Origin: Enterobacteria phage IME_EC2
DNA length: 41,510 nt
Sequence record: NC_047742.1
Reading direction: 5' to 3' (one strand)
The position numbers were made by a program, and so were the translations under genes. A model generated the notes under the pieces. The model made no database searches. It was not told where the DNA came from and saw nothing but the letters and a program-made list of their open reading frames with translations. Every line of letters starts with the position of its first letter. Positions within the stretch are counted from its first letter, which is position 1. This document shows, one piece after another, positions 1 to 41,510 of this stretch.

Positions 1-58
1 TACCCGATCGGGCCGGACTCGGACCTGGTGGCCCGGTTGAGTGAATATCTTTACCCGG

Positions 59-103
59 ATAGCACGAATTGCTAAAAGCGATTTATCAAATGTTGTTATA
101 GTT
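59..103 (+). promoter_or_regulatory. Promoter-like cassette copy 1: dyad ATAGCACGAATTGCTAAAA, 22-bp spacer, TATAGT
   Basis: Read directly; same dyad recurs 6 times, always upstream of the first ORF of a gene block and in the same orientation relative to it. Confidence 0.5.
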
Positions 104-148
104 CTTTCACCGGGCGGCAATGGGTCGCCCACTACCGGAGAGATAACG

Positions 149-397
149 ATGGCAAACTTAACAATCATGGTAAAAGGCGATCAAGAGCGCGGGCGTCAGT
201 GGTCACGTAACTTTAAAAACCTGCTCCCGGCGTTCGTGAAAACTGGCACAGTTAAGCGCTATCTCTCATGGAAAGCGCCGGAGTTAACAGGCGAGGAGCC
301 GGAACTGGAGGAGCGCGTGGACGAGTTCATGACTCGCGGCGAGTTCGAACTGAATCGCCTGATCCACCGTAACAAGATCCGCGCCGACGAGTATTAA
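149..397 (+). CDS. hypothetical protein (83 aa)
   Basis: ORF 41..397 trimmed to ATG at 149 preceded by GGAGAGA; first gene after promoter cassette copy 1. Confidence 0.55.
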   Translation: MANLTIMVKGDQERGRQWSRNFKNLLPAFVKTGTVKRYLSWKAPELTGEEPELEERVDEFMTRGEFELNRLIHRNKIRADEY

Positions 398-403
398 CAG
401 CCC

Positions 404-438
404 GGCCCCTTCGGGGGCCATCCACCCAGGAGTCGAAG
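404..438 (+). promoter_or_regulatory. GC stem-loop with UUCG tetraloop (GGCCCC-TTCG-GGGGCC) fused to ATCCACCCAGGAG Shine-Dalgarno context
   Basis: Perfect 6-bp stem read directly, no U-tract; near-identical element at 12911-12946. Confidence 0.5.
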
Positions 439-816
439 ATGTCGAAAGTCACAGTAGTAACACGCTGGCCCACAGTAGCCGACGCACAGCAGGACGCGGA
501 GCGCGTGGCCTCACTCATTCGCGCACAGTCCAGCGTCCAGTCCATGCCGATCCGCGTTAACACATACCAGCGCGAGGAGAAGCTGGGCGGCGGGTTCGGC
601 TACGTGCTGGAATGCGGTCCAGTCTCGATCGTCTGCCGTAGCATCACCCGTTACACGGCTTGTTATTCGCTGCCGGAAGGTCCACGCGGGAACCATCGCG
701 ACGAGTTCGAAGCGGTCACGGCGGAGGCTGCGATCGAGGAGATGCGGGAATTTCTGGAGAGCCGGATCAAACACGCCCGCCTCGCGCTGGCTGTCCTGTC
801 CGGTCCTGCGGGATGA
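439..816 (+). CDS. hypothetical protein (125 aa)
   Basis: ORF track; ATG 15 nt after CCCAGGAG; stop overlaps next start (ATGA). Confidence 0.6.
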   Translation: MSKVTVVTRWPTVADAQQDAERVASLIRAQSSVQSMPIRVNTYQREEKLGGGFGYVLECGPVSIVCRSITRYTACYSLPEGPRGNHRDEFEAVTAEAAIEEMREFLESRIKHARLALAVLSGPAG

Positions 817-1049
817 TCCCGGAGAAGGTCCAGCGGAAGGCCGACGAGATTCTGGCCCGCTACTACGCGAAGGAGATCGCGCCTAAGCGGTTGAAGGGGT
901 TCGGCAAGGTATCAGCGTTCAACGTGGGCTATAGCTGGCGGCTCGTGACGTGGGACGAGGGGGAGACGTGGGATCTACTGTCCCACGAGGAGTACAACAA
1001 CAAAACGCGGGGCCGTCGTCAGCGGCTCCAGGTCAAAGGCAAGAGGTAA
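813..1049 (+). CDS. hypothetical protein (78 aa, basic)
   Basis: In-frame ATG inside ORF 660..1049 overlapping upstream stop as ATGA, suggesting translational coupling. Confidence 0.5.
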   Translation: MIPEKVQRKADEILARYYAKEIAPKRLKGFGKVSAFNVGYSWRLVTWDEGETWDLLSHEEYNNKTRGRRQRLQVKGKR

Positions 1050-1054
1050 ATATT

Positions 1055-1366
1055 ATGGAACGTTTCGCACATGTTTTTGAAGCACACGATCGCCAGGTTC
1101 TGGTCCGCCGTGGCGTTGACTCGGACGAGCATCCGGCGATCAATCTGATCACTGAGATCGACGGCGCGGAGTTGTCGTTTAACCTGGTGTTCCACCCGGA
1201 CGATCAGGAGGAGGATCGAGAGTTCTCCTACGAGAAAGCGGAAGCGGCCCGCGATCGCGCATTCCTGGACGTGGACACGCTGCGCAAGGCTGCGGAGGGC
1301 TTCGCCAAACAGTTAGAAGGCGCGGAATCGCCTATGGACGCCTTACGCCTTCTTTCCGGCAAATAA
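1055..1366 (+). CDS. hypothetical protein (103 aa)
   Basis: ATG at 1055 preceded by AAGAGG; internal Met of ORF 950..1366. Confidence 0.55.
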   Translation: MERFAHVFEAHDRQVLVRRGVDSDEHPAINLITEIDGAELSFNLVFHPDDQEEDREFSYEKAEAARDRAFLDVDTLRKAAEGFAKQLEGAESPMDALRLLSGK

Positions 1367-1388
1367 CAATAAGTTAACAATCAATCAT

Positions 1389-1416
1389 AAAAGGGCCTTT
1401 GCGGCCCTTTCTTTTT
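1389..1416 (+). terminator. intrinsic terminator (AAGGGCC-TTTGC-GGCCCTT + T-run)
   Basis: GC stem followed by CTTTTTTC, directly after stop of ORF 1055..1366. Confidence 0.7.
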
Positions 1417-1464
1417 TCATTTACCCTTTTAGCGTTCACTCACTTGTTAAAAGGGATCCCTCCA

Positions 1465-1818
1465 ATGTCTGAGCATACGACGCTATGGCAATTGTTCCAG
1501 CTATACCGCGTTGAGTTGGGTTATTCATTCATCGCGGCATCGGTGGCGGTGTTCCGTCACTGGCAATTGCGCCACCCGTTCCGCGATATCGTCAGCGGCG
1601 GGGCGATCTGCGCTGCCGTCGCGTTCGGGATGAATAATATTTTATCATTCTTCGGGGTCGATCATGGTACGTGGGGTTATCTCGCTTCCGTGTTCCTGGG
1701 CTATGTTGGCGTAGAGACTGCGCTCGACTGGGCCAGCGAAAAGATCCCATTTCTTAAAAAGATCCGCGCTACTCCGGCGCACACTAACCACGAGGATCAG
1801 ACCGATGGCAAAATTTGA
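1465..1818 (+). CDS. holin, lambda S-like (class I, 3 TM segments)
   Basis: Three hydrophobic segments plus charged C-terminal tail; C-terminal region resembles lambda S; immediately upstream of endolysin with overlapping ends. Confidence 0.75.
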   Translation: MSEHTTLWQLFQLYRVELGYSFIAASVAVFRHWQLRHPFRDIVSGGAICAAVAFGMNNILSFFGVDHGTWGYLASVFLGYVGVETALDWASEKIPFLKKIRATPAHTNHEDQTDGKI

Positions 1819-2284
1819 AGTCACGCCACAGCGCAAGGCGTTTCTGGACGCGATCGCGGTAGGAGAGGGAACAGACAACGGTCGCCAGCAGACCAAAAAT
1901 CACGGCTACGACGTGATCGTGGGCGGCTCGCTGTTCTCCGACTATTCGAAGCATCCGGGGCGGCTGGTGAAGCTGCCGAAGCTCGGCATTAACTCCACGG
2001 CGGCGGGCCGCTATCAGGTGCTTAAGAAGTATGCGGAGCATTACATCGACCAGCTAAACCTCCCCGACTTCTCCCCAGCGTCACAGGACCAGATCGCCCT
2101 CCAGCAGATCAGCGAGCGTAAAGCGCTGGCGGATATTGACGCGGGCCGGATCCGCGAAGCCGTGGCAAAGGTCAATAACATCTGGGCCTCCCTGCCGGGT
2201 TCGAAGTATGGACAACGGACGGAGACGATCGACGACTTCCTGAAATATTTCCGCGCTGCTGGCGGTAAGGTAGCCGGAGAATGA
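1805..2284 (+). CDS. endolysin, lambda R-like lytic transglycosylase
   Basis: Aligns by eye along its length with lambda R (QRKAFLD, EGTDNGRQ, NHGYDVIVGG, DYSKHP, AGRYQ, NIWASLPG, YGQ). Confidence 0.9.
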   Translation: MAKFEVTPQRKAFLDAIAVGEGTDNGRQQTKNHGYDVIVGGSLFSDYSKHPGRLVKLPKLGINSTAAGRYQVLKKYAEHYIDQLNLPDFSPASQDQIALQQISERKALADIDAGRIREAVAKVNNIWASLPGSKYGQRTETIDDFLKYFRAAGGKVAGE

Positions 2285-2802
2285 TCGCCGCCCTCCGGTT
2301 GTTCCTCTCGACTCACTGGCGATCGCTGCTGCTCGTCGTTGTCGTGCTGCTGGCGCTGGGGGGATCTTTCTGGGCTGGCTCGGCCTGGACGGACCGGGGC
2401 TGGACCGCTCGCGACAATGCCAGGATCGCGAAGGAATCCACCCAGGAAGCGAACGCACAAGCCGCCGCCCGTATCATTGAACAAGGCCGGGCCATTGCCC
2501 GCGAGGAGTCCGTAAAATATGCGAACGAACAAGCCGCAAAAGCTCGCGCCGCTGCTGCTACTGCTGGCGCTTCCCTTGATCGGTTGCTCGAACGAGCCGC
2601 AAAGGAAGCCGCACGACGCGACGCCGCTGATCAGACCGCTGCCCTCGGAAGGGCGTCAGGGGAAAAGACCGCCAGAATGTACGCCGACCTGTTACGACGG
2701 ACTGGCGAAGTCGCTGGACGGTATGCTGATATAGCGGAGAAGGCGATCACCGCCGGGGAGGTATGCGAAAGGAATTACGACGCCGTGGAGCGTCAGCAAT
2801 AA
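2281..2802 (+). CDS. Rz: i-spanin (Rz-like)
   Basis: N-terminal TM anchor then Ala/Arg/Glu-rich coiled-coil-like periplasmic region; follows endolysin with ATGA overlap; contains embedded +1-frame lipoprotein ORF. Confidence 0.8.
   Translation: MIAALRLFLSTHWRSLLLVVVVLLALGGSFWAGSAWTDRGWTARDNARIAKESTQEANAQAAARIIEQGRAIAREESVKYANEQAAKARAAAATAGASLDRLLERAAKEAARRDAADQTAALGRASGEKTARMYADLLRRTGEVAGRYADIAEKAITAGEVCERNYDAVERQQ
2519..2734 (+). CDS. Rz1: o-spanin (Rz1-like lipoprotein) embedded in Rz
   Basis: Signal peptide with lipobox LIGC, proline-rich mature part, fully inside Rz in the +1 frame. Confidence 0.75.
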   Translation: MRTNKPQKLAPLLLLLALPLIGCSNEPQRKPHDATPLIRPLPSEGRQGKRPPECTPTCYDGLAKSLDGMLI

Positions 2803-2805: not shown

Positions 2806-2830
2806 GGGGGCCAGTTGGCCCCCTTTTTTA
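2806..2830. terminator. intrinsic terminator between convergent genes (GGGGGCC-AGTT-GGCCCCC + T-run)
   Basis: Stem-loop with T-run on plus strand; sits at the convergence of Rz (+) and the Ig-like gene (-). Confidence 0.7.
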
Positions 2831-3616
2831 TGCCGGGTTTACCGTGACCGTACAAGCGATCGAGGTGACGGTGTTCGGCGGGACGGTGTTCGAACTGGTG
2901 GCAATACAGCGGTATTGACCAGCGTCCCCAGCCTGCGGCGTGGCAATGTTCAGCGTTGCGGCGGTTGCTCCAGTGATGCCACCTGCGCCTCCGTTGGCGA
3001 CGTTGCTCCAGGAGGTCCCGCCGTTCGTGGACTTCTGCCACTGGTAGGAGTACGGAGCGAGGCCCGTCGCCGCGTTGACCACGACCGCCAGCGAGTCCGC
3101 GACGTCTACCGTCCAGGTATCGGTCGCCGGGAGGTTGGTCGATAGGGCGATCGCCTGTTTCGTGCGCTCGCGCAAGGACTCCACCATCTGGCCCGTTGCG
3201 TCGGTTACTCTCACGAAGTAATCCCCGTTATTATTAGCCGCTGAGTAAGAGGCGATCGTGTAGCTGTCCTGATCGGCCCCCACTGGGTTGTCGGTGCTGG
3301 AGGCACGACGGAACCAGGCGAACGAGTAAGGAGCCACGCCGCCCTCCATCTCCACGGAGAACTCCTTCGAAGCGCCCCCGGTGACGTAGGTCGCGCCCGC
3401 GTCGGTTGCGTTGTTGCCCGGAAGGTTGACGGCGAACGTCAGCGCCGGGACAAGGTTCGGATCGTACTCCATGTAAAACATCCCAGTAGGATCCAGACCT
3501 TCGGGATCTGCGTCCAGCCAGATCACATCTTTCTGGGGAACCGTGACCGGATCAAGGATTCGCGTCACTTTCCACCCGAACATATCCGGGCGGTAGTACC
3601 GATGCCAAAAAGCCAT
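2828..3616 (-). CDS. Ig-like (Big/Hoc-type) domain protein
   Basis: Two Ig-like repeats (PYSFAWFRR, PYSYQWQKS, GQYRC); ORF trimmed to second ATG (MAFWH) with GAGGA upstream. Confidence 0.65.
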   Translation of the reverse strand: MAFWHRYYRPDMFGWKVTRILDPVTVPQKDVIWLDADPEGLDPTGMFYMEYDPNLVPALTFAVNLPGNNATDAGATYVTGGASKEFSVEMEGGVAPYSFAWFRRASSTDNPVGADQDSYTIASYSAANNNGDYFVRVTDATGQMVESLRERTKQAIALSTNLPATDTWTVDVADSLAVVVNAATGLAPYSYQWQKSTNGGTSWSNVANGGAGGITGATAATLNIATPQAGDAGQYRCIATSSNTVPPNTVTSIACTVTVNPA

Positions 3617-3688
3617 AATTTTGTCCTCGTGAAATTGTGCGGTATACTGCCCCGGCATTGTAGATCATCTCTGGCGTTAAAACGAAAG

Positions 3689-3718
3689 GAGCCGCTTTTT
3701 AAGCGGCCCTTTTTTTTA
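3689..3718. terminator. intrinsic terminator (GAGCCGC-TTTTTAA-GCGGCCC + T8)
   Basis: Stem-loop flanked by T-run on plus side and U-rich on minus side. Confidence 0.65.
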
Positions 3719-3817
3719 GAGTACCATCGACACGCCGAAACCGATTAAAGCCCACAGCGCGGCGCTTGCTGCGATTACGCCCCATATAACGTATTTGTGT
3801 CCGCGTAAGTTGTTCAT
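3716..3817 (-). CDS. small hydrophobic protein (33 aa, one TM)
   Basis: ATG with strong SD (AGAGGGGAA), overlaps upstream stop as ATGA; short, so uncertain. Confidence 0.45.
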   Translation of the reverse strand: MNNLRGHKYVIWGVIAASAALWALIGFGVSMVL

Positions 3818-4206
3818 GCGATTTTCCCCTCTTTCTTGAATTTTGCCAGGCGTCCGCGAATTGAAGGACGCGATTTGTTGAGCCAGTTCGCGACGTGCGC
3901 GTGAGTGAGTTCGGTCGGCACTATCACCCGGCGACCAGTGGCGATCACCAGTTCGTCCAGATCCTCGTCGGTCAGAAGTCCCTCCCAGAAGCGGACCAGC
4001 TTCCGGTCCTCCTCCGTCGTCCATTGCGTGTACGTCCGGTTATACGCCAGGGAGAGGCCCAGCTTAGAGGCCCGGACCTGCATCTGGCGGAAGTTGCGAC
4101 CGATGCGCTTCGCCAGTTCGTGCGGCGGCATGGTCGCGGCGAGGCGGGTCAGTTCCGCGTCCTGCTCGTCAGTCCACCCGATAATCTGCGCTGTTACTTT
4201 ACCCAC
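3814..4206 (-). CDS. putative DNA-binding protein with two GcrA/Myb-like WT-x-EED repeats
   Basis: GTG start with AGGAGG 7 nt upstream; GWTDEQDAEL...ASKLGLS and QWTTEEDRKL repeats resemble the GcrA N-terminal domain. Confidence 0.55.
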   Translation of the reverse strand: MGKVTAQIIGWTDEQDAELTRLAATMPPHELAKRIGRNFRQMQVRASKLGLSLAYNRTYTQWTTEEDRKLVRFWEGLLTDEDLDELVIATGRRVIVPTELTHAHVANWLNKSRPSIRGRLAKFKKEGKIA

Positions 4207-4477
4207 GAGATCCTCCTTTGAGGTGCTTCCGGTTTTTGGTTGAGTCCAGCGCCCGCTTAAGGTCGCCCTTCTCGCTTTTGGTTCCCGGCACGACTCGGAA
4301 GTGGTGCGGGTCTGGTTGGTTCAGGTACATCTCGCCGTCCGGCGTCTCGATCGATATGTCGGCGATCGCCTCCTTGCCGAACACGCGAGAGACTGCGCTG
4401 ATCATGCCGTCCAGTTCGGCGGCTTGCGCCGCCTCCCACAGTTCCCGGCGCGTTGCCTTAGTGGGCCGGGTAGCCAT
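4199..4477 (-). CDS. hypothetical protein (92 aa)
   Basis: ORF track; tightly packed in minus-strand operon. Confidence 0.5.
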   Translation of the reverse strand: MATRPTKATRRELWEAAQAAELDGMISAVSRVFGKEAIADISIETPDGEMYLNQPDPHHFRVVPGTKSEKGDLKRALDSTKNRKHLKGGSRG

Positions 4478-4685
4478 ACGCCCCCCGGATAAGTTCGCGG
4501 GCGTCGTTCTCCGCCTGGACCGCTTCGCGGGTAAGTGCTGCCTTTGCCAGTGGCCCCGCCGCGTACATCTTGAGGCGGTTGCGGAGGATCATCGCTGTCT
4601 CGATCAGGATATGCGCCTGTTTCAGTAACAGCGGGTTCACGATCTGAGCCTTGTTTGTTTTGGTGTGGAGTAATGTCTGTTTCAT
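4458..4685 (-). CDS. hypothetical protein (75 aa)
   Basis: ORF 4458..4748 trimmed to ATG (MKQTLL) with GAGGA upstream; first gene after promoter copy 2. Confidence 0.5.
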   Translation of the reverse strand: MKQTLLHTKTNKAQIVNPLLLKQAHILIETAMILRNRLKMYAAGPLAKAALTREAVQAENDARELIRGAYGYPAH

Positions 4686-4740
4686 TGCTTCGTCCTCGTG
4701 TTGGTGTGAAAGAATAATAACAAAGGATAAGCGGCATTGC

Positions 4741-4758
4741 TTTAGCAAAAAGTGCTAT
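4741..4758 (-). promoter_or_regulatory. Promoter-like dyad copy 2 (ATAGCACTTTTTGCTAAA on minus strand), -10-like TATTAT 22-23 bp downstream
   Basis: Read directly; lies between a terminator and the next minus-strand gene. Confidence 0.5.
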
Positions 4759-4762
4759 ACGC

Positions 4763-4786
4763 AAAAAAGGCCCCGGAGGGCCTTGT
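4763..4786 (-). terminator. intrinsic terminator for minus-strand operon (AAGGCCC-TCCG-GGGCCTT + U-run)
   Basis: GC hairpin followed on minus strand by TTTTTTG, directly after stop of ORF 4788..5528. Confidence 0.6.
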
Positions 4787-4787
4787 G

Positions 4788-5528
4788 TCAGAATGGAGCG
4801 TTTTCGATGTAGACCGCGACGGCGAAGCCTTCGGGCGTGGCGCTTCGGATGTTCTTCGTTCGTGTGCTGGATCCGCCCAGTCTCGACCAGCCCGGATTAT
4901 CCTTAACAGCCGGGACGCTCTGGAATGCCGGGAAGCGGAAGCCGCCACCGCACCAGATCCCCGTCTGCTTCGGGTACGCGTCCCGCGCCGGATAGATCTC
5001 CGGGTAGAGGCTATGCTGGTGATCCTCCGGCAAGTAGCCGCCGAAGTTGTAGGGGTGGAACCAGTGATCGCAAGGTCGCCACATCGTGGAGAGCCGGGAG
5101 ATCTTCGGATTCTCCAGCATCCAGGGGACCAGCGTTTTGTCCTCATAGTCGCCGTTTTCGTACCCGGCAAACGTAGCCACCTGCTCGACCATCTTCGCCA
5201 GCGCGACGGCCTTCTCCTGGAAGCGTGGATCCTTCTTGCGCTTCGCTTCCCACCATCTGGCCCCGGTACAGGTTAGATCGGTGCATTCAGCAAAGGAGGC
5301 CACGAAGATCACGCCCGGCCCGACTTCATCGGCGATTCTGAGCGCTTCTACTTCCGTGTTGTCTGCGTCGAACATCCGGCCCACACGGATCAGGTTCGGC
5401 TCGTCGGCGTCTGGGTGGATCCCTGGCTCGTGCTGCCCGTCATACATCCAGCATTCCACGCCAGCCTCCAGCCACTTGTCCACCATGATCCGGGTCAGGT
5501 TAAACAGGAAAATCGCCTTATGCTTCAC
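4788..5528 (-). CDS. hypothetical protein (246 aa) in Dam/clamp-like operon
   Basis: ORF 4788..5561 trimmed to GTG (VKHKAIF) with AGGA upstream; start is uncertain (an ATG 14 codons downstream is an alternative); no family recognised. Confidence 0.55.
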   Translation of the reverse strand: MKHKAIFLFNLTRIMVDKWLEAGVECWMYDGQHEPGIHPDADEPNLIRVGRMFDADNTEVEALRIADEVGPGVIFVASFAECTDLTCTGARWWEAKRKKDPRFQEKAVALAKMVEQVATFAGYENGDYEDKTLVPWMLENPKISRLSTMWRPCDHWFHPYNFGGYLPEDHQHSLYPEIYPARDAYPKQTGIWCGGGFRFPAFQSVPAVKDNPGWSRLGGSSTRTKNIRSATPEGFAVAVYIENAPF

Positions 5529-5751
5529 GGTTCTGATCCTTCTCGTACTCGTCGGCGTCACGCTTGATCAGCGCGTCCCACTGGTCCATATGTACCGGGT
5601 TATAGTCCTGCTCGAAAGAGAGATCGAGCGCCTCGGCGAAGTGCTCGGCCTCCTCACGGGAGGCCACCAGCTTACGCGCCATTAACTCGTCCGCGACCTT
5701 CTCCTGGAAGATGGCCCAGCGGCTATTAGTGTGACCGTCGTTATATTTCAT
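5518..5751 (-). CDS. hypothetical protein (77 aa, acidic)
   Basis: ORF track. Confidence 0.5.
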   Translation of the reverse strand: MKYNDGHTNSRWAIFQEKVADELMARKLVASREEAEHFAEALDLSFEQDYNPVHMDQWDALIKRDADEYEKDQNREA

Positions 5752-5754
5752 TGC

Positions 5755-6336: not shown

Positions 6337-6352
6337 CTCTGGGTCCTCTCGG

Positions 6353-6994: not shown

Positions 6995-7049
6995 CTGCTG
7001 CCCTTTTTTGGTTGGTGGTGACTAACGATAATTGATTAACTGTTTTGTG

Positions 7050-34709: not shown

Positions 34710-34892
34710 TTATCTAATGAAGGTATCGAAGAACCACAGCAGACCACAGACGCACAGGAACAGCGTCACGCCTCGCCATGCCAGATCGAGCCAGTCGATC
34801 GAGGTGTCCGGCTCTGCTGGTTTTATTACCCAGCCCGCCGCGATCTCGCGCTTCGTTGCTTCGAATTGTGCCAGCGTTACCGGGGGACGCAT
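34710..34892 (-). CDS. possible small membrane protein (60 aa)
   Basis: C-terminal hydrophobic segment LFLCVCGLLWFF; start uncertain, no clear SD. Confidence 0.3.
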   Translation of the reverse strand: MRPPVTLAQFEATKREIAAGWVIKPAEPDTSIDWLDLAWRGVTLFLCVCGLLWFFDTFIR

Positions 34893-34933
34893 GACGAAAA
34901 AGGGGGCGTTCCGATCCCCCCAGTCGCTGGCCC

Positions 34934-35893
34934 TCACTTTACGCGGCGATACTTCTCGACGTCGGACCATTCGACCACGCCAGCCTCCAGGATGTTCTCC
35001 CCGCCGCCATAGGTGCGGATCTCCACCACTTGATCGTCAGGGAGATCGTTCGGCTTGTACTGCCATTCCCACACGATCCAGTCCCCGACGGGTTGCCAGT
35101 CCTTCGACTGCTCGCCAGTCTGCGGACGGTCCAGCAGGGCGTCCAGCAGTTTCCCCGCCGTGTCGGCCCCGAAGCGCGTCCCGGTGAGTTGCTCGATCAG
35201 TTTGCGGCACTTCTCGGCGTTGCGAGCGTGCCAGCGGAGGCTCTGCTCCGTGTCCTGCTTGCTGCGGTTCTCCGACCACACGATCCGCTCGTGGTCCGTC
35301 TCGCAGTTGGTGATCTTCTCCTGCTGGCTATGCCACCAGACCAGATCGCGGAGTGCTCCGGTCCCCATCCTGAATACGTTCCAGTTATACGGGAGGCGCT
35401 TGTCGTCGCACTCCTTCACGTAGCGCTCCAGCAGTTCCACGCGCTGCTCTGCGTCCACTGCTGCGCGACGGTTGCGATCGCTGTCGTCTGCCTTCTTGAC
35501 CAGCTCGCGGGCCTTCTGCTCGGTCCATGCGATATGTTTCGGGTTGCCATCGATCGGGCGGAAGTGGGTCGGCACGTCCAGCGCGTCCAGGATGCCGCGA
35601 AGGTTCACGTAATACCCGTTCAGCTTCTCGTCCGCGTCGATCAGCGTCTGGATCCTTGCTTCCAGCGCCCGCTCGTGGGACTTGTCGCGCCACTTCTCGG
35701 ACTCCTTGAAAACGCGTTCCAGCGCGTCGTCGGAGAGGAGCGGAAGGTGGCACGGAGCCAGGTCCGGCTCGGCCTTAAAGCCCTGTTGAATCGCGTCCGT
35801 AACGTCGGCGATCCAGTTGGCCCGGTACTGGATGCGCTGGCGGGCTTCGGTGGAGTTGAGCGCGTAGGCCACGCCCTTGTCGTGTGAGTTCAT
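34934..35893 (-). CDS. hypothetical protein (319 aa)
   Basis: ORF track; long, diverse composition; no family recognised. Confidence 0.6.
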   Translation of the reverse strand: MNSHDKGVAYALNSTEARQRIQYRANWIADVTDAIQQGFKAEPDLAPCHLPLLSDDALERVFKESEKWRDKSHERALEARIQTLIDADEKLNGYYVNLRGILDALDVPTHFRPIDGNPKHIAWTEQKARELVKKADDSDRNRRAAVDAEQRVELLERYVKECDDKRLPYNWNVFRMGTGALRDLVWWHSQQEKITNCETDHERIVWSENRSKQDTEQSLRWHARNAEKCRKLIEQLTGTRFGADTAGKLLDALLDRPQTGEQSKDWQPVGDWIVWEWQYKPNDLPDDQVVEIRTYGGGENILEAGVVEWSDVEKYRRVK

Positions 35894-35939
35894 GCTGTAG
35901 ATCCTCTGGTTGGTTGCCCCGTTGCCGGGGCTGGTGGAG

Positions 35940-36140
35940 TTAAAAGCCGTCGTAGTAGCCAGGCAGTGCGCGGAGAGCCGCTTCGTCGTCGATCAGGTCC
36001 CACTCGGTCGGCTCAATGTCTGCCGCCTCTGCCATCTCGTGGGCGATGATACCAGCCACCAGCGGGGAGACGTTGCCCGTCGCTTTCTGGCGCTCGATCT
36101 CTGCCTGAATATCTGCGAGTGTATCGGATAATGATTTCAT
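35940..36140 (-). CDS. hypothetical protein (66 aa, acidic)
   Basis: ATG with GGGAGA SD; first gene after promoter cassette copy 5. Confidence 0.55.
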   Translation of the reverse strand: MKSLSDTLADIQAEIERQKATGNVSPLVAGIIAHEMAEAADIEPTEWDLIDDEAALRALPGYYDGF

Positions 36141-36211
36141 GATGTTCTCCCGGTCAGTGGCGGGACCATTTCCCGCCGTCAGAAGAACTATAACAACATT
36201 TGATAAGTGCG

Positions 36212-36230
36212 TTTTAGCAATTCGTGCTAT
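36212..36230 (-). promoter_or_regulatory. Promoter-like dyad copy 5 (ATAGCACGAATTGCTAAAA on minus strand), TATAGT 22 bp downstream
   Basis: Read directly; flanking about 90 bp nearly identical to copy 1 (inverted) and copy 4. Confidence 0.5.
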
Positions 36231-36499
36231 TCGATGCCGTCATAACGCCCGGCCTTGAACAGTGTCCCGTTTCGCCAGTCGTTCCACGCGAAGTAGGGCC
36301 AGATCACCAGCGTAACAGCCAGCACGAGGACCGCCAGCAATGCCACGATGAAGGCGACGAGAGGGATCAGGGAGGGAGGGATGGCCCTCACCTCCTCCGC
36401 CATCTTGCGGCCCAGGTAGGCCGCTGCTCCCGCCCTGCATTCCATGATGATATAAGCGACGCCCAGCATCAGGAAAGAGGCGATCAGTTCGTAGATCAT
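36227..36499 (-). CDS. small membrane protein (90 aa, 2-3 TM)
   Basis: Hydrophobic segments IASFLMLGVAYIIM and LIPLVAFIVALLAVLVLAVTLVIW. Confidence 0.55.
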   Translation of the reverse strand: MIYELIASFLMLGVAYIIMECRAGAAAYLGRKMAEEVRAIPPSLIPLVAFIVALLAVLVLAVTLVIWPYFAWNDWRNGTLFKAGRYDGIE

Positions 36500-36856
36500 T
36501 CAGTACATCCCATTAGTGAGTAAGTATAAACGACGGTTCCGCATGGAGCGGACCATCTGCGAGGATCCCCAGCCACCAGGCACACGGAACATCAGCCCGG
36601 AGCCAGCGGCCCGGCAATAAAGGCGGTTGCGGTCGCGGAAGTCGCGAAGCTGTCGCCCGGTCTGCGTCCCCTTCGGGTCCACCAGCAGACAAAACACTGG
36701 CGGCTCGCCGTAGCGATCCCGGAGGTCGGCGAGGTGCTTCTCCACCATCTCCGCCACGGCGTTCTCCGCTGCCTCCTTCGCGCAATCATCGCACATCCCG
36801 CCCTCCCTTCCCGACGGGATCGGGAGGTGGCAACGTTTGCAGTAATCAAAGACCAT
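36500..36856 (-). CDS. Cys-rich protein (118 aa; CKRCH ... CDDC)
   Basis: ORF track; possible zinc finger; two overlapping alternative-frame ORFs judged spurious. Confidence 0.5.
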   Translation of the reverse strand: MVFDYCKRCHLPIPSGREGGMCDDCAKEAAENAVAEMVEKHLADLRDRYGEPPVFCLLVDPKGTQTGRQLRDFRDRNRLYCRAAGSGLMFRVPGGWGSSQMVRSMRNRRLYLLTNGMY

Positions 36857-37127
36857 CAGATAATCCCTCGCTCATGTTGTCGGCGACCTGCTGCATGTAG
36901 ATCGCGTAAAGGTTCTGGCCTATCGCCAGGATATCCTCCGGGCGGAGGATGGCCCGCGCCGTGTGGACGTTGGAGAGCGCCGCCACCAGGACGTCGCGCT
37001 GTACGTGGTTAAGCCGGAGTTCGCCCCACGCCGGGGAGTCTGCCCGGTGGATCACCTGCTCGATCTTGAGGTGGTCGAACCACACGAGGATCTCGCGCTC
37101 GTCTGGCTTTTCGGTTGCGTCTGTCAT
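36846..37127 (-). CDS. hypothetical protein (93 aa)
   Basis: ORF track. Confidence 0.5.
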   Translation of the reverse strand: MTDATEKPDEREILVWFDHLKIEQVIHRADSPAWGELRLNHVQRDVLVAALSNVHTARAILRPEDILAIGQNLYAIYMQQVADNMSEGLSDGL

Positions 37128-37170
37128 TGGATCCTCCCAGGATGCCCGGCTCTCGACCGGGCGGTGGTTG

Positions 37171-37389
37171 TCAGATGTTCGCGGCGATGAATGCCAGGAC
37201 TTCGCGGAGGTGCTTCTCGTCGCGGATAGTGGCTGGCAATTCCTCTTTCACGCTGCTGTCGAGGTAGATATTGCCATTCCATGTATAAGAGCCGTTAGGG
37301 TTGACCAGATAGGAGAACATCCACTCACAATCATTGTCAGCTTCCCACACGCACAGCAGGATCTTTCCGTCGTCGTTGATATCTTCCAT
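37171..37389 (-). CDS. hypothetical protein (72 aa)
   Basis: ORF track; preferred over overlapping low-complexity ORF 37248..37511. Confidence 0.5.
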   Translation of the reverse strand: MEDINDDGKILLCVWEADNDCEWMFSYLVNPNGSYTWNGNIYLDSSVKEELPATIRDEKHLREVLAFIAANI

Positions 37390-37518
37390 CGTAACGTCCA
37401 GGCCGCGCTTAACTGCGTATTTTTGGTGGTTGCGTTGACTGCTGTCATGGTCTTGCCCTCTGAGTTGGTGGGCGTCTCGTCGCCCGGTGAAAACATATTA
37501 TCAATTATCACCGGGGAC

Positions 37519-37537
37519 GTTTTAGCAATTCGTGCTA
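37519..37537 (-). promoter_or_regulatory. Promoter-like dyad copy 6 (ATAGCACGAATTGCTAAAA on minus strand), TAATAT 22 bp downstream
   Basis: Read directly; overlaps the stop of the upstream small ORF. Confidence 0.5.
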
Positions 37538-37717
37538 TTTATCCTTTCTCATTCGACGGAGTGATCGGACCAGATCGACGACGGCCCAGCCAGACGCCAG
37601 CAGGAACGGCGCGAGGACCGCCAGCTTTTCCCAGTTGGTCAGGATCGCGTCGGTCCCTCTGGTCATGCCGATCCAGGCTATCACCAGGACCTCGTAAGCG
37701 AAGGCGAGCCAGATCAT
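37535..37717 (-). CDS. small membrane protein (60 aa)
   Basis: Two hydrophobic segments; ORF track. Confidence 0.45.
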   Translation of the reverse strand: MIWLAFAYEVLVIAWIGMTRGTDAILTNWEKLAVLAPFLLASGWAVVDLVRSLRRMRKDK

Positions 37718-37947
37718 TTCCCCAGCCTCACCTTGCGGACGATCGTAGCTGCGGTGTCGTAGGCGTCGCGCTGCCGGGGTGAGACGCTGCTCTCCCGGAG
37801 TTCGACCAGACCACGCTCCAGGACTTCCAGCGCGGCCCAGCGCCCGGACAAGTCCATGATCACCTCCTCGGCGTCGCGGTCGATCTTGCCTGGCGGGTGT
37901 CCCTCCGCCATCAGCTTGATCTCCTCGGTGGTCATTGGCTTACGCAT
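37714..37947 (-). CDS. hypothetical protein (77 aa)
   Basis: ORF track; ATGA overlap. Confidence 0.5.
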   Translation of the reverse strand: MRKPMTTEEIKLMAEGHPPGKIDRDAEEVIMDLSGRWAALEVLERGLVELRESSVSPRQRDAYDTAATIVRKVRLGK

Positions 37948-38236
37948 CAGCGCCCCCTTTCGGTCCCAGCTCCTGGTCGATAAAGTCCTGCGCCATGCGG
38001 TCGGCGTCCTCTGCGTTCGCGTTCTGGATGGCCTCCAGTTGCTTCTTGCGGTGGTCGTGGAGGAAGCTCTCGACGGCCTGGTGTGCGAGCGCCGTCGCCT
38101 GGTTGTGGGTGTAGCCCTTGCGCTTAAACTGGGCGTAAGCGTTATCGAGCAACGTCTGGCGCTGGTGTGGGCCTACATACATACGCGAGATATCCGCGAC
38201 GCCTGATTTCTGCCCTGCATTGTCTTTCATCATCAT
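37940..38236 (-). CDS. hypothetical protein (98 aa)
   Basis: ORF track. Confidence 0.5.
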   Translation of the reverse strand: MMMKDNAGQKSGVADISRMYVGPHQRQTLLDNAYAQFKRKGYTHNQATALAHQAVESFLHDHRKKQLEAIQNANAEDADRMAQDFIDQELGPKGGADA

Positions 38237-38266
38237 CTCCTCGTTTCCTCGTCGTCGTGACGGGCC

Positions 38267-38455
38267 TCACATCAGGCCCAGCATGTTAAACACGATCGCC
38301 GCCAGTCCGACCACGATCGCGCCGATGGTTGTCGCCACCATCAGGAAGTAATTCCACAATCCGAACCGTTCGATCCAGTGGTTCGATCGTGCTGGTTCAA
38401 CCTGTCCGACTGCTGTCCGTCGGGGGAATAAAATCACGTTGTTATCGTCGCTCAT
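38267..38455 (-). CDS. small membrane protein (62 aa)
   Basis: C-terminal TM segment LMVATTIGAIVVGLAAIVF. Confidence 0.45.
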   Translation of the reverse strand: MSDDNNVILFPRRTAVGQVEPARSNHWIERFGLWNYFLMVATTIGAIVVGLAAIVFNMLGLM

Positions 38456-38640
38456 TTCGCATCACTTATCAATGATTATTTAAGCGGGGATTTTTCGGGG
38501 GTGGCCCCCGATTTTTACCCCCTGATTTCCGCATTAACGATTTGCCATAAACCTGTTAACACTTCTCTTGTAACTTCATGAATCTGTTATGTTAATTTTC
38601 AGTTCATAGTTAACGTTGTTTAGACTTTCCGGCATATGTT

Positions 38641-38692
38641 GTTAACGTTACGCGTTTATCCCTCTCTCTATAAGAGAGGGGATAACGTTAAC
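38641..38692. repeat. 52-bp imperfect palindrome (GTTAACGTTA ... TAACGTTAAC outer arms) in AT-rich iteron-like region
   Basis: Outer 10-bp arms are exact reverse complements; inner arms TATCCCTCTCTC / GAGAGGGGATA nearly so; further GTTAAC(GTT) copies nearby. Confidence 0.6.
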
Positions 38693-38848
38693 GGAACACA
38701 ACGCCCCGTTAAAAGTCACTCAGATCGTCGGATCCTTCGGTCGGTTTCCAGTCGGTCGGGAGTGGCTTCTGATCCCGGATTCCACCCAGGAGCGGAGCCG
38801 CTTCGGTTGAGGCGGTCAGCGTTTCGTCCCCTGCCATTTTGATGATCA

Positions 38849-40396
38849 TCATTTTTTGGTCGCATGTTCGAAGGCGTGGAAAAAGTCCGTCCGCTTAATC
38901 GGCGGCTCTGCGAAGTTGCGGAAGTGATCGGATAACATGCCTTTGGTCAGCTTCGGCAAGCGGTAGCCCTTGTCCTTGCGCTGCTGCGAGTATTCCACGA
39001 CGTAGGCCAGCAGTCGGATCGCCTGTTCCTCCTTCTTGCTGCGCTTGCGCGTGTCCTCCGGCTTCTCGCCCTCGTCCTTCTCGGCTGGCACTGCCTCCAG
39101 CGCGTTAATGACGACCAGCGTCCCCAGGTTGTCGCCGATCTCCCACGCCGCCGGGTTGGCCTTCGCCTCCGGGCGTACAGGCTGCATCCTCGCCAGCGCC
39201 TCGCGCTTCATCTTCACCAGGTCAGGCGGTAACTTCGCGGACTTCGTGCGCATGGCTCGCGCCGGGAGAAGCGCACAGCCTTTGGCCTTCGTGTGCTCAA
39301 TCACAAAAAGCTCTTTGTCCTTGCACTTCTTCACCATGATCTCGAATCCGGCGTTTGCCCTGAGCGTTGACGCGCCACGAGCGCCGCGCTCGGTGTCCTT
39401 CCCGGTGTGGTGGATGATCATCACGGCACAGTTAAGCCATTCAGCCAGTAACGCCGCGTTACGCATCAGGATCGCCGCCACGTTGTTGTCGTTCTCGTTG
39501 AAGTCGGTCCCGCCCTCCCAGCGGTCCGGCTCGTCGCCCTTGCCTGGGATCATGCGCTCGCCCACTTTCTGGCCCGCGCTGTTGGCGCTGTAGGTATCGA
39601 TCACGATCAGGGAAAGCGGGTTCAGGCCGAAGAATGGGGACGCCTTGATGGTTGCCGCGAACGTCTGGAGTTCGCTCTCGCGGTGTAGTGGGACCTGCTG
39701 GGACAATACCCAAAAGTTGGGTAACGGCTCGTTCTTGTTCTGCGTGTACTTCCATCCCGCGTAACGTTCACGGACGCCGCTCGCATCCTCCGGCGCGAAG
39801 TACATCACGGATCCCTGTCGGACTGGCAAGCCGCCGAAGTCGATCCCGGTGGCGACACAAATCGCCATTTGTAACGCTGCGAACGTTTTCTTTGCGCCGG
39901 ACTCGCCGACCAGGAAGCCCACGGAGCGCTCCGGGATCAGCGACTGGATCACATAGTTAACGGGCTTGATCTCGTTCGACTTGTTCAGGCTGGCGATCAG
40001 CGGGTCGTCCATTGCCTCGACCGCCAGCGCCTCGTCGATCTTCTTGCGCTGCTTCTCGCGCTGCTTCGCGAGGAGTTCCTGGCGACGTGCTTCGTCCTTC
40101 TCCTCGTCGGTGAGGTCTGACGTCTTGACGATCGTCGGCTTGTCGTTGCGGACGGTTGCCGTCCACTCTGCGGCCTCGTGCTCGTCGAAGTCGAAGAACG
40201 CCCCGGCATCCTGGGCGGATTCTGCTTCTCTCGCCGCGTACAGGCTGGCCTGTTCCTCGTAGAACTCCATAGGAGCCTCTGGCACGTCGTCAGCAGGTGG
40301 AGGCGTTACCGGGCCGGAGAACTCGCCCCGGACCATCTCGATCAGCTCCTCCTCGCTGCGCTCTGGTGTCGGCATTACTTCATCATAATCAGTCAT
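38849..40396 (-). CDS. RepA-like RecA-fold AAA ATPase (putative replicative helicase)
   Basis: Walker A GESGAKKT, Walker B-like LIVIDTYS, IIHHTGKD; acidic disordered N-terminal region. Confidence 0.7.
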   Translation of the reverse strand: MTDYDEVMPTPERSEEELIEMVRGEFSGPVTPPPADDVPEAPMEFYEEQASLYAAREAESAQDAGAFFDFDEHEAAEWTATVRNDKPTIVKTSDLTDEEKDEARRQELLAKQREKQRKKIDEALAVEAMDDPLIASLNKSNEIKPVNYVIQSLIPERSVGFLVGESGAKKTFAALQMAICVATGIDFGGLPVRQGSVMYFAPEDASGVRERYAGWKYTQNKNEPLPNFWVLSQQVPLHRESELQTFAATIKASPFFGLNPLSLIVIDTYSANSAGQKVGERMIPGKGDEPDRWEGGTDFNENDNNVAAILMRNAALLAEWLNCAVMIIHHTGKDTERGARGASTLRANAGFEIMVKKCKDKELFVIEHTKAKGCALLPARAMRTKSAKLPPDLVKMKREALARMQPVRPEAKANPAAWEIGDNLGTLVVINALEAVPAEKDEGEKPEDTRKRSKKEEQAIRLLAYVVEYSQQRKDKGYRLPKLTKGMLSDHFRNFAEPPIKRTDFFHAFEHATKK

Positions 40397-40536
40397 TGTC
40401 TTTTCCCTGCTGCGTTAATAAAGTGTTCATAACTTAACAGTGATTCATAACGCCGTCAATCCGCACCAGTAAAGAAAACTCTTTACATCACTGTTACGTC
40501 ATGTATGCTTAAAGACGAACAACAACGGAGGCGAAC

Positions 40537-40980
40537 GTGGACTTATTCAAACAGAAGCGAACTACGGCCCCGGCTACCGCCGGAGCGCCGCGCAAGACGG
40601 CGGCGGAGAAGCGCCAGGAGATACTCGACAAGATAGCGCCCACTGATCTGTCGGTGCTGGACGCTATCGACAAGGGGCTGATCGATCCGTTTGTACCCAC
40701 GGACGAGACTCGGAAGGCGTTCTCCATGCTCAAGCCGTCGGAGCAATTGTTCGCCGCGTTCTTCGAATGCCCCGGCGTTGACCAGCGGAAGCTCTCCGCG
40801 CTCTGCCGTCACACGGCAAAGATGGAACGCGCCGGACTGCTGCGTGATCTGCGCGTTGACCGTTCGAAGCTGGCCCCGCCAGTGTCGGATCCGATGGAGT
40901 TCCCCCCAGGCGTCGAGATTGGCCCGGAGTTGGCCCTCGCTGCCTTACAATGTAAACAAGCCATGAGGAAAGAGAGATGA
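40537..40980 (+). CDS. hypothetical protein (147 aa)
   Basis: GTG start with GGAGG SD; divergent from the AAA ATPase gene. Confidence 0.5.
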   Translation: MDLFKQKRTTAPATAGAPRKTAAEKRQEILDKIAPTDLSVLDAIDKGLIDPFVPTDETRKAFSMLKPSEQLFAAFFECPGVDQRKLSALCRHTAKMERAGLLRDLRVDRSKLAPPVSDPMEFPPGVEIGPELALAALQCKQAMRKER

Positions 40981-41510
40981 TCAGATATATCGCAGTAGGT
41001 GAGCCGGAATTTAATTGCGAGTGGTTCCTGAGTATCGCCGCGATCAATTCGTTCAGCCTGGACGAAAAGACCGGACGCGCCCGGCTCCACTACACGCTCC
41101 CCGACACGGAGGAGGGAACGATGGAGGATTGTCTGAGCGTGGAGCCGTTCGAAAAGGTTCGCCCGCTGCTGCTGGGTCTGCCGCCTGATCCGCTTATCCT
41201 GGATCTGAGTAAGGCCGAACAGGACAAGATCCGCCGGACGTTAAACGCCACCCAGCAGACGCTCGACGAACTCCAGCCACGGCTCCAGCCTGGCCCTACT
41301 GTCGGCCTCGACTCGGACGTGTGGGCCGTGGTCAAACTGCTGGAGTCTCGCGAGTGGGCCGAACACTGCACGACGACCGAACTCGGCGGACGACTGGAGG
41401 CTGAGATCACGAAGCTGATCGGGCATGATAACGCGGCGACGAACAAGCTCCAGCGGGCGGAGCAATTGCTGGCTGAGATCCATCACGCGGTAAACAACGA
41501 CGGCGGGCTG
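40977..41510 (+). CDS. hypothetical protein, 3' partial (runs off window end)
   Basis: ATG overlapping upstream stop (ATGA); 178 codons open to the last base; absent from ORF track because no stop is reached. Confidence 0.5.
   Translation, partial: MIRYIAVGEPEFNCEWFLSIAAINSFSLDEKTGRARLHYTLPDTEEGTMEDCLSVEPFEKVRPLLLGLPPDPLILDLSKAEQDKIRRTLNATQQTLDELQPRLQPGPTVGLDSDVWAVVKLLESREWAEHCTTTELGGRLEAEITKLIGHDNAATNKLQRAEQLLAEIHHAVNNDGGL

What the first reader, a model, noticed from the sequence alone, without database searches (positions are those of the whole stretch)
1..41510. Genome-scale architecture: probable complete circularly permuted genome, five strand blocks, no integrase
Window length matches a P22-like genome. 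The last ORF (40977 onward) has no stop before the window end and, if the sequence is circular, stays open for 26 more codons into the window start, ending at a TAA (about 76-78) next to dyad copy 1. The lysis cassette is on the opposite strand to the morphogenesis genes, unlike P22. No integrase or attachment site was recognised.
Basis: inference. Interest (0 to 1): 0.4.

Follow-up and report, generated by a model that had tools for sequence, protein, structure and literature searches.

The report
Complete genome of coliphage IME-EC2

Summary
The window is a complete, unit-length phage genome. Its length (41,510 bp) equals the published length of Enterobacteria phage IME-EC2. Two published IME-EC2 read-terminus 30-mers match it exactly. 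It is about 97% identical to phage sortsyn (species Murrayvirus EC2).

The window's two ends are contiguous in relatives.

Position 1 is an arbitrary cut. The published physical ends map to about 37,910 and 38,209: a sharp pac-type end, a diffuse opposite end and about 300 bp of redundancy. Any permutation is therefore partial.

The linear window shows five strand segments, which are four blocks on the circle. The convergent joints carry terminator hairpins.

PHROGs, Pfam and tblastn found no integrase, excisionase, CI-type repressor, tRNA or Rfam element. There is no prophage copy in 5,426 E. coli genomes.

Only the virion module is P22-like, and it is closest to Sf6. Lysis genes are on the opposite strand, unlike P22.

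Side notes:
- Six conserved dyad-promoter modules.
- Four homopolymer frameshifts that look like Ion Torrent errors.

The parts
40977..41510 (+). 5' part (178 codons) of the ORF that crosses the window junction
   Evidence: ATG at 40977, no stop before the window end. Together with 1-75 it gives 202 aa, 99% identical to sortsyn_28.
1..75 (+). 3' part (24 codons plus TAA at 73-75) of the junction ORF
   Evidence: The junction is contiguous in sortsyn and sortregn and is annotated as a joined CDS in circular KMB41.
40537..41510 (+). Strand block A, first half (two genes of unknown function); continues into 1-2802
   Evidence: Gene map; phrog_30497 and phrog_20174, both of unknown function.
1..2802 (+). 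Strand block A, second half: four small unknown genes and the lysis cassette
1465..2802 (+). Lysis cassette: holin 1465-1818, endolysin 1805-2284, Rz-like spanin 2281-2802
   Evidence: phrog_126 E 3e-17, phrog_90 E 2e-54, phrog_312 E 8e-43.
2806..2823 (.). GC-rich hairpin at the convergent A/B joint, terminator-like on both strands
   Evidence: GGGGGCCAGTTGGCCCCC followed by a T run, found on both strands.
2828..7968 (-). Strand block B: Hoc-like Ig decoration protein, two DNA methyltransferases, RusA-like resolvase, primase, small unknowns
   Evidence: phrog_2973, phrog_757, phrog_3007, PF05869 Dam, phrog_510 / Zn_Ribbon_Prim.
7969..8036 (.). Divergent B/C control region (68 bp)
   Evidence: Gene map. 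A sigma-70-like site on the - strand, 8023-7994.
8037..13940 (+). Strand block C: helicase, VRR-NUC-like nuclease, PD-(D/E)XK exonuclease, Erf annealase, SSB, endonuclease, 72-aa HTH_3 regulator, one unknown
13445..13663 (+). Only Cro/CI-type HTH protein (72 aa). Too short to be a CI-type repressor with a cleavage domain. Candidate binder of the dyads (inference).
   Evidence: PF01381 HTH_3 E 5e-14; 74% identical to Sortsne gp27.
13968..13989 (.). Terminator-like hairpin at the convergent C/D joint
13993..40396 (-). Strand block D (26.4 kb): AAA_25 ATPase, about 14 small early genes, terminase, portal, head, tail and ejection genes, tailspike
13993..33278 (-). P22/Sf6-type packaging and morphogenesis module in P22 gene order (putative TerS, TerL, portal, scaffold, coat, gp4, gp10, gp26, gp14-position, gp7, gp20, gp16+SLT, tailspike)
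   Evidence: Pfam P22_portal, P22_CoatProtein, P22_Tail-4, Phage_stabilise, Phage_tail_NK, P22_gp7, Inj_translocase, SLT, Head_binding. tblastn against P22 gives 25-47% identity. TerS is assigned by position only.
31247..32869 (-). Large terminase subunit, Sf6 gp2-like (headful type)
   Evidence: PF04466 E 2e-31. PDB 4IDH 'Gene 2 protein' E 1.8e-84 over residues 67-529. No similarity to P22 gp2.
37910..38209 (.). Published physical-end region: sharp end at 38209 (DNA extends to lower coordinates), weak end at about 37903-37910, about 300 bp terminal redundancy. It lies inside small genes about 4.9 kb upstream of the putative TerS gene.
   Evidence: Table S4 of PMC3896407. The 30-mers map exactly at 38180-38209(-) and 37910-37939(+).
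38456..38848 (.). Largest non-coding gap. AT-rich, with 4 GTTAACG in 85 bp and a near-palindromic hairpin at 38656-38685. Candidate origin or early control region (inference). About 140 bp of the gap is an artefact of a frameshift at 38858.
40397..40536 (.). Divergent D/A control region (140 bp)
   Evidence: A sigma-70-like site at 40482-40509 on the + strand.
59..75 (+). Dyad-promoter module copy 1 (ATAGCACGAATTGCTAA), upstream of gene 149-397
4742..4758 (-). Dyad module (variant spacer CTTTT)
7052..7068 (-). Dyad module (variant spacer CTTTT), upstream of the Dam methylase gene
28251..28267 (-). Dyad module upstream of the small genes that precede scaffold and coat
36214..36230 (-). Dyad module
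37522..37538 (-). Dyad module
19297..20621 (-). gp20-like ejection protein gene, split into two ORFs by a 1-nt shorter A/T run near 19910. Probably a sequencing error.
   Evidence: The gene is intact (441 aa) in sortsyn and KMB41.

Best explanation
The window is one unit length of the genome of the virulent E. coli podovirus IME-EC2 (type species of Murrayvirus), written as an arbitrary linearisation of a circular map.

Shown here:
- The ends join seamlessly inside a conserved 202-aa gene.
- About 60 genes fill 94% of the sequence in four strand blocks: two divergent control regions and two convergent joints with terminator hairpins.
- The virion and packaging module is of the P22/Sf6 type, with an Sf6-like headful terminase.
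- The lysis cassette sits in a different block on the other strand.
- No integration or lysogeny genes exist.

Taken from the literature and mapped here: virion DNA has a sharp end at 38,209 and a diffuse end near 37,910, about 300 bp of redundancy.

Inferred life cycle:
1. Linear DNA of about 41.8 kb is injected.
2. It is circularised through its short redundancy, probably with help from the phage's own Erf annealase, PD-(D/E)XK exonuclease and SSB.
3. It is replicated with the phage primase and helicases and the host polymerase.
4. Concatemers are cut at a pac site near 38,209 and packaged towards lower coordinates, the same direction as late transcription, by the headful.
5. Lysis, decoration and structural genes, although spread over three blocks, are probably co-regulated through six copies of one dyad plus extended -10 promoter module.
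For: Identity:
- Length of 41,510 equals the published IME-EC2 length.
- Published terminus 30-mers match exactly, and both sit at the published coordinate +30.
- 97-99% identity to sortsyn, classed as Murrayvirus EC2.
- GC 59.2%, in line with the >59% reported for the genus.

Completeness and circular map:
- Ungapped junction alignments.
- Junction protein 99% identical to sortsyn_28.
- KMB41 and ST231 are deposited as circular records, KMB41 with the same origin as the window.
- Whole-circle collinearity with sortsyn.
- No prefix/suffix overlap.

Architecture:
- Gene map, terminator hairpins, and the same four blocks in five relatives.

Virulence:
- No 'integration and excision' PHROG among 60 CDS.
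- No Phage_integrase, Resolvase, Recombinase, rve or Peptidase_S24 among 35 CDS plus 5 antisense ORFs in Pfam.
- P22 int, xis, c2, c1, cro, mnt, arc, 18, 12, 23 and 24 give nothing by tblastn.
- No tRNA and no Rfam family.
- No match in 5,426 E. coli genomes.
- In 185,579 species genomes the only relative of the helicase is a 42.8-kb phage-length contig.
- The phage was isolated as lytic.

Packaging:
- TerL matches Sf6 gp2 at E 1.8e-84.
- The read-start pattern is one strong end and one weak end.
Against: - The GenBank record KF591601/NC_047742 is not in the searchable collection, so identity to IME-EC2 rests on length, two 30-mers and close relatives.
- A terminal redundancy of about 0.7%, with forward read starts clustered within 8 nt, is unusually small and sharp for headful packaging. 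The source paper itself also lists the phage under 'fixed termini'.
- The pac-type end is about 4.9 kb from the putative TerS gene, unlike P22.
- TerS is assigned by position only.
- The promoter and regulon model and the Erf-mediated circularisation are inference only.
Confidence: 0.93

Rival explanations
1. The window is an internal fragment of a longer contig, or an integrated prophage with host flanks trimmed off.
For: None found. The window alone cannot exclude trimming.
Against: - The ends join inside a conserved gene with ungapped 99% alignment to an independently assembled linear record.
- Every relative is a 38-43 kb phage record with the same circular gene order.
- No match in E. coli chromosomes.
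- No integrase.
- GC is 59%; my own knowledge puts E. coli at about 51%.
Confidence: 0.01
2. The phage is temperate by an unrecognised route, such as a novel recombinase among the unknown proteins or a plasmid prophage.
For: - About half of the proteins have no assigned function, including a 319-aa protein (34934-35893), a 183-aa protein (33259-33810) and the 202-aa junction protein.
- A small Cro/CI-type HTH protein exists.
Against: - No integrase, transposase, partition or protelomerase family in PHROGs or Pfam.
- No CI-length repressor.
- No prophage copies in 5,426 E. coli genomes.
- Pattern-based scans of 185,579 species genomes with two of its proteins found only a phage-length contig.
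- Described as lytic on isolation.
Confidence: 0.04
3. Virion DNA has two fixed ends with an exact direct terminal repeat of about 300 bp and is not circularly permuted at all (DTR-type rather than headful packaging).
For: - The source paper puts IME-EC2 in its 'R>100, fixed termini' class.
- The top forward read starts fall within 8 nt, and the implied redundancy is only 0.7% of the genome.
- The record origins of ST231 and Sortsne fall near this region.
Against: - The two ends differ tenfold in read support: 695 against 66 reads, with an average start frequency of 9.5. That is the usual signature of pac initiation followed by headful cuts.
- TerL is a close homologue of the Sf6 headful terminase.
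- The authors themselves conclude headful packaging.
Confidence: 0.18

Closest known systems
Enterobacteria phage IME-EC2 (KF591601 / NC_047742), species Murrayvirus EC2; also Escherichia phage sortsyn MN850623
   Same: - Same length of 41,510 bp, and exact match of the published terminus reads.
- 97-99% nucleotide identity and full circular collinearity with sortsyn.
- Same host and same high GC.
   Different: Relative to sortsyn:
- A 615-bp gene between terminase and portal is absent.
- One small gene is replaced (36713-37129).
- The Hoc-like gene and part of the gp16-like gene are divergent.
- Four 1-nt homopolymer differences break genes in the window.

No difference from IME-EC2 itself could be tested.
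Other Murrayvirus and Sortsnevirus phages (KMB41, ST231, sortregn, Lumpael, Sortsne, IME279, Kc237)
   Same: - Same four-block circular gene order and same module content.
- 77-88% nucleotide identity.
- The dyad modules are syntenic within Murrayvirus.
   Different: - Sortsne lacks the ATAGCA-N5-TGCTAA dyad and repeats a different upstream sequence around a similar -10 region.
- Small early genes vary between the phages.
Shigella phage Sf6 and Salmonella phage P22 (P22-like podoviruses)
   Same: - Virion gene set and order: portal, scaffold, coat, gp4, gp10, tail needle, three ejection proteins, and a tailspike with a P22-type head-binding domain.
- TerL and portal are closest to Sf6 proteins.
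- Genome size is about 41.5 kb.
- Headful packaging runs in the direction of late transcription.
   Different: - No lambdoid early region, immunity region, int/xis/attP or antiterminators 23/24.
- Different replication genes.
- The lysis cassette is on the opposite strand in a separate block, not at the head of a single late operon.
- The pac-type end is not in the TerS gene.
- Only 25-47% amino-acid identity to P22.
- The phage is virulent.

Membership tests
Murrayvirus EC2 (phage IME-EC2) | At least 95% nucleotide identity over the genome to a member of the species | tested here: met
   96.6-97.4% identity to sortsyn (NCBI taxonomy: Murrayvirus EC2). One joined place covers 70% of window 1-25000 and another covers 98% of 20001-41510. 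Local BLAST HSPs at 95-99% tile the whole circle except three divergent stretches, 2835-3473, 17299-17560 and 36713-37129.
Murrayvirus EC2 (phage IME-EC2) | Same length and same sequence as the published IME-EC2 genome | tested here: inconclusive
   Length of 41,510 equals the published value. Two published 30-mers match exactly, both at the published coordinate +30. The GenBank record is not in the collection, so a base-by-base comparison was impossible.
P22-like phages (Lederbergvirus and relatives) | P22-type virion module (portal, coat, gp4, gp10, gp26, gp7, gp20, gp16, tailspike head-binding domain) in P22 order | tested here: met
   Nine Pfam families above their curated cut-offs. tblastn against P22 proteins gives E 1e-4 to 1e-116 for most.
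P22-like phages (Lederbergvirus and relatives) | Lambdoid early and immunity region with c2/cro/c1, antiterminators, int/xis/attP | tested here: not met
   None of these P22 proteins gives a significant tblastn hit (best E 0.18). No such PHROG or Pfam family.
P22-like phages (Lederbergvirus and relatives) | Single late operon with the lysis genes upstream of, and on the same strand as, the morphogenesis genes | tested here: not met
   P22: genes 13, 19, 15 and 3 through 9 are all on the + strand. Window: lysis on +, morphogenesis on -.
Headful (pac) packaging phages | Large terminase homologous to a characterised headful terminase | tested here: met
   PDB 4IDH/4IEE 'Gene 2 protein' at E 1.8e-84. 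I recognise this entry, from my own knowledge, as Sf6 gp2.
Headful (pac) packaging phages | One sequence-specific end, imprecise opposite ends, terminal redundancy and partial permutation in virion DNA | not testable with these tools
   No reads are available here. Published read-start counts (695 against 66) and about 300 bp of redundancy were mapped on the window.
Temperate (integrating) phages | Tyrosine or serine integrase, or a transposase | tested here: not met
   PHROGs on 60 CDS and Pfam on 35 CDS plus 5 antisense ORFs gave no such family. P22 Int found nothing by tblastn.
Temperate (integrating) phages | Prophage copies in host genomes | tested here: not met
   No megablast match in 5,426 complete E. 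coli genomes. GTDB scans with two proteins found only a 42.8-kb phage-length contig.

The most novel reading that the evidence does not exclude
Murrayviruses replace the single P22-type late operon with a dispersed regulon. Six conserved modules head transcription units on both strands; those units include the lysis cassette, the Hoc-like decoration gene, two methylases and the head genes. Each module is a 17-bp dyad (ATAGCA-N5-TGCTAA) centred about 42 nt upstream of the predicted start, an extended -10, a GC hairpin and an RBS. The modules would be switched together by a phage HTH protein, with the 72-aa protein at 13445-13663 as candidate. In addition, packaging would start at a pac site about 4.9 kb upstream of the terminase genes, next to a probable origin, rather than inside the TerS gene.
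Probability: 0.3. Interest if true: 0.3.

Novelty: already known. Interest (0 to 1): 0.1.

Why it matters
It matters little as a discovery. The genome, its genus and even its termini were published in 2014-2020.

The check is still useful in three ways. Second, it fixes the true physical ends (about 37,910 and 38,209) as distinct from the arbitrary record origin. Third, it flags likely homopolymer sequencing errors in a reference genome that other groups use to orient and classify new Murrayvirus isolates.

The group is a clear example of a P22/Sf6 virion module grafted onto a non-lambdoid, strictly lytic backbone.

Tried and rejected
- Fetching the IME-EC2 RefSeq record for direct comparison: not in the collection. 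The primary genome paper (PubMed 25163858) is not held.
- 'repeat_region' features in sortregn as possible terminal repeats: they are short internal repeats, not ends.
- Terminal overlap between the window ends: none.
- tRNA and Rfam scans for att-associated or RNA elements: nothing.
- GC skew as an origin marker: it mostly follows the transcription strand and is uninformative.
- Sequence search of the putative TerS (32847-33278) and of the gene holding the pac-type end (37940-38230) against solved structures: nothing meaningful. I did not go on to structure prediction because it is tangential to the finding.
- First GTDB scan, with the AAA_25 protein: no relatives.
- Exact dyad search in Sortsne and P22: absent.
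- Five large antisense ORFs checked for hidden recombinases: no Pfam family.

Full report
WHAT THE WINDOW IS

Megablast against 50,697 phage records found 14 relatives, all enterobacterial podoviruses of the genera Murrayvirus and Sortsnevirus. The closest is Escherichia phage sortsyn at 96.6-97.4% identity. NCBI places sortsyn in species Murrayvirus EC2.

The type phage of that species is Enterobacteria phage IME-EC2 (KF591601). Its published length is 41,510 bp, exactly the window length. Two 30-nt high-frequency read-start sequences published for IME-EC2 (Table S4 of PMC3896407) occur exactly once each in the window, at 38180-38209(-) and 37910-37939(+). The 5' ends of both lie at the published coordinate plus 30. 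GC is 59.2%, in line with the >59% reported for the genus.

I could not align to the GenBank record itself, because it is not in the collection. With that caveat, the window is the IME-EC2 genome.

CHECKING THE OBSERVATION

The last ORF begins at ATG 40977 and is open to base 41510 (178 codons, in frame). Continued at base 1 it runs 24 more codons to TAA at 73-75.

Staying open for 24 codons is not evidence by itself in 59% GC DNA. The expected chance is 46% from composition and 54% empirically. The real evidence is homology:
- The joined 202-aa protein is 99% identical over its full length to sortsyn_28.
- An artificial junction of the last 600 plus first 600 bases aligns without a single gap at 99.1% to the interior of the sortsyn record.
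- The same junction aligns across 923 nt to sortregn.
- KMB41, deposited as circular and starting at the same base as the window, annotates the same CDS joined across its origin.

The rest of the window tiles the whole sortsyn circle collinearly. There is no prefix/suffix overlap. So the window is exactly one unit length of a circular map, opened at an arbitrary point inside a gene.

GENE MAP AND STRAND BLOCKS

I transferred gene calls from sortsyn and checked starts and stops. This gives 61 ORFs (60 genes, one of them split) covering 94% of the sequence. The linear window reads +,-,+,-,+. The first and last segments are one block across the junction, so the circle has four blocks:
- A(+) 40537 through 2802
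- B(-) 2828-7968
- C(+) 8037-13940
- D(-) 13993-40396

The convergent joints carry GC-rich terminator-like hairpins at 2806-2823 (both strands) and 13968-13989. The divergent joints are 68 and 140 bp. The same four blocks are present in sortsyn, KMB41, sortregn, ST231 and the sister-genus phage Sortsne.

CONTENT OF THE BLOCKS

- Block A holds small unknown genes and the lysis cassette: holin, endolysin and Rz-like spanin.
- Block B holds a Hoc-like Ig decoration protein, two DNA methyltransferases, a RusA-like resolvase and a primase.
- Block C holds a helicase, nucleases, an Erf-family annealase, SSB and a 72-aa HTH_3 protein.
- Block D starts with an AAA_25 ATPase and about 14 small unknown genes, then a P22-order packaging and virion module.

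The virion module comprises a putative TerS (by position only), TerL, portal, scaffold, coat, gp4-, gp10-, gp26-, gp7-, gp20- and gp16-like proteins, and a tailspike. The tailspike has a P22-type head-binding domain and a colanic-acid-degrading body.

Against P22 itself these proteins are 25-47% identical, and the terminase subunits do not match at all. TerL and portal are instead closest to the PDB chains 4IDH (E 1.8e-84) and 7SFS (E 1e-200), which I recognise as Sf6 gp2 and gp3 (the identification is from my own knowledge).

In the annotated P22 record the lysis genes and all morphogenesis genes are on one strand, downstream of one late promoter. Here they are on opposite strands in different blocks.

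INTEGRASE AND LYSOGENY

- None of 60 proteins hits a PHROG of the 'integration and excision' category.
- None of 35 proteins (all those of 170 aa or more, and many smaller) nor 5 long antisense ORFs hits a Pfam integrase, resolvase, recombinase, transposase or S24 peptidase family.
- P22 Int, Xis, C2, C1, Cro, Mnt, Arc, gp18, gp12, gp23 and gp24 find nothing by tblastn.
- There is no tRNA gene and no Rfam family.
- The whole window has no megablast match in 5,426 complete E. coli genomes.
- Pattern-based scans of one genome for each of 185,579 species found no relative of the AAA_25 protein.
- For the helicase, the same scan found only a 42,764-bp MAG contig. Its fetched 20.7 kb are collinear with window 257-19997, so it is another free phage genome.
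- The phage was isolated as lytic.

The only Cro/CI-type protein is 72 aa, too short for a CI-type repressor with a cleavage domain. The phage is virulent.

PHYSICAL ENDS AND 'CIRCULARLY PERMUTED'

The published read-start analysis gives one strong end and one weak end:
- Strong: 695 reads starting at window 38,209 and running to lower coordinates.
- Weak: a cluster of opposite starts of 62-66 reads at about 37,903-37,910.
- Average start frequency: 9.5.

The authors conclude a definite start, partially permuted ends and about 300 bp of redundancy, consistent with headful packaging. The Sf6-like TerL agrees. The packaging direction, from 38,209 downwards, is the direction of late transcription, as in P22.

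The population of virion DNAs is therefore at most partially permuted, and the window's base 1 has nothing to do with the ends.

Two points leave a rival open, namely exact 300-bp terminal repeats. The redundancy is only 0.7% of the genome, and the weak end is fairly sharp. Only long reads or PhageTerm can settle this.

The sharp end lies 21 nt inside a 96-aa gene of unknown function (37940-38230). That is about 4.9 kb upstream of the putative TerS gene and about 250 bp from the largest, AT-rich intergenic region. The record origins of ST231 (about window 38,094) and Sortsne (between the homologues of the two genes that flank that region) fall close by, which is weakly supportive.

HOW IT PROBABLY WORKS (INFERENCE BEYOND THE POINTS ABOVE)

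1. Injected linear DNA circularises through its short redundancy, plausibly using the phage's own Erf, exonuclease and SSB set.
2. It replicates with the phage primase and helicases and the host polymerase.
3. It is packaged from concatemers by the headful.

Because late functions are scattered over three blocks, they need a shared signal. A candidate exists. The 17-bp dyad ATAGCA-N5-TGCTAA occurs six times exactly, against 0.04 expected by chance. Every copy is in an intergenic gap and is oriented with the downstream genes. Each is followed by an extended -10-like TGnTATAGT, in most copies by a GC hairpin, then by an RBS, with a start codon some 70-85 nt downstream of the dyad.

By my count the dyad centre lies about 42 nt upstream of the predicted start, the position of a class II activator or of a repressor overlapping the -35 region. 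The copies are syntenic in sortsyn, KMB41, ST231 and sortregn. They are absent from Sortsne, which keeps a similar -10 region with a different upstream sequence.

COMPARISON WITH WHAT IS KNOWN, AND VERDICT

The genome, its genus and its termini are already published. As a finding it is ordinary and scores low.

Noticed in passing
59-75(+), 4742-4758(-), 7052-7068(-), 28251-28267(-), 36214-36230(-), 37522-37538(-): Six exact copies of the dyad ATAGCA-N5-TGCTAA, against 0.04 expected by chance. Each is intergenic and co-oriented with the downstream genes. Each is followed by an extended -10-like TGnTATAGT, usually a GC hairpin, an RBS and an ATG. Copies are syntenic in four Murrayvirus relatives and absent from Sortsne and P22. 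The TAA stop of the junction ORF lies inside copy 1. They are probably co-regulated promoter/operator modules.
   Followed up: partly
about 19910, 28153, 37425, 38858 (also intergenic 2830, 13995, 33817): Isolated 1-nt shorter T/A homopolymer runs relative to sortsyn. They split the gp20-like ejection gene, truncate the N-termini of two small genes (27737-28048 and 37171-37389), and remove 47 aa from the C-terminus of the AAA_25 protein. IME-EC2 was sequenced on Ion Torrent, so these are probably homopolymer sequencing errors in the reference genome. They inflate three 'intergenic' gaps.
   Followed up: partly
38456-38848: The largest non-coding stretch. It is AT-rich, with four GTTAACG in 85 bp (15 in the whole window against 3.6 expected) and a near-palindromic hairpin at 38656-38685. 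It sits between the AAA_25 gene and the early small genes, about 250 bp from the published sharp DNA end. It is a candidate replication origin or early control region.
   Followed up: partly
37910-38209: The published pac-type end and the 300-bp redundancy lie inside small genes of unknown function, about 4.9 kb upstream of the putative small terminase gene. In P22 the pac site lies inside the TerS gene.
   Followed up: partly
2828-3658 (-): A Hoc-like Ig-domain head-decoration protein is encoded outside the morphogenesis module, in the methylase/primase block. It is the most divergent protein relative to sortsyn, at 60% identity.
   Followed up: no
L001 (sortsyn) 28750-29295 and 22756-23115; window 31231-31247 and 36846-37127: Sortsyn carries an extra 181-aa gene between terminase and portal that the window lacks, and a different small gene at the position of window 36846-37127. 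These are small mosaic indels within one species.
   Followed up: no
L007 (QFQS01000013.1, contig 42,764 bp): A MAG contig binned as Cereibacter sphaeroides is collinear with window 257-19997 at 71-79% identity and is of phage-genome length. It is most likely a Murrayvirus/Sortsnevirus-like phage genome mis-binned into a bacterial MAG.
   Followed up: partly
L002 (KMB41) 38983-40638, 32949-33503, 6045-6626: Several product names in the KMB41 record look like over-annotations. They are 'cobalt-zinc-cadmium resistance protein', 'DNA gyrase subunit A' and 'beta sliding clamp'. The window homologues are an AAA_25 ATPase, a protein of unknown function and a RusA-like protein respectively.
   Followed up: no
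whole window: GC is 59.2% in a phage that grows on E. coli (about 51% GC, from my own knowledge). The genus literature notes this for all members.
   Followed up: no
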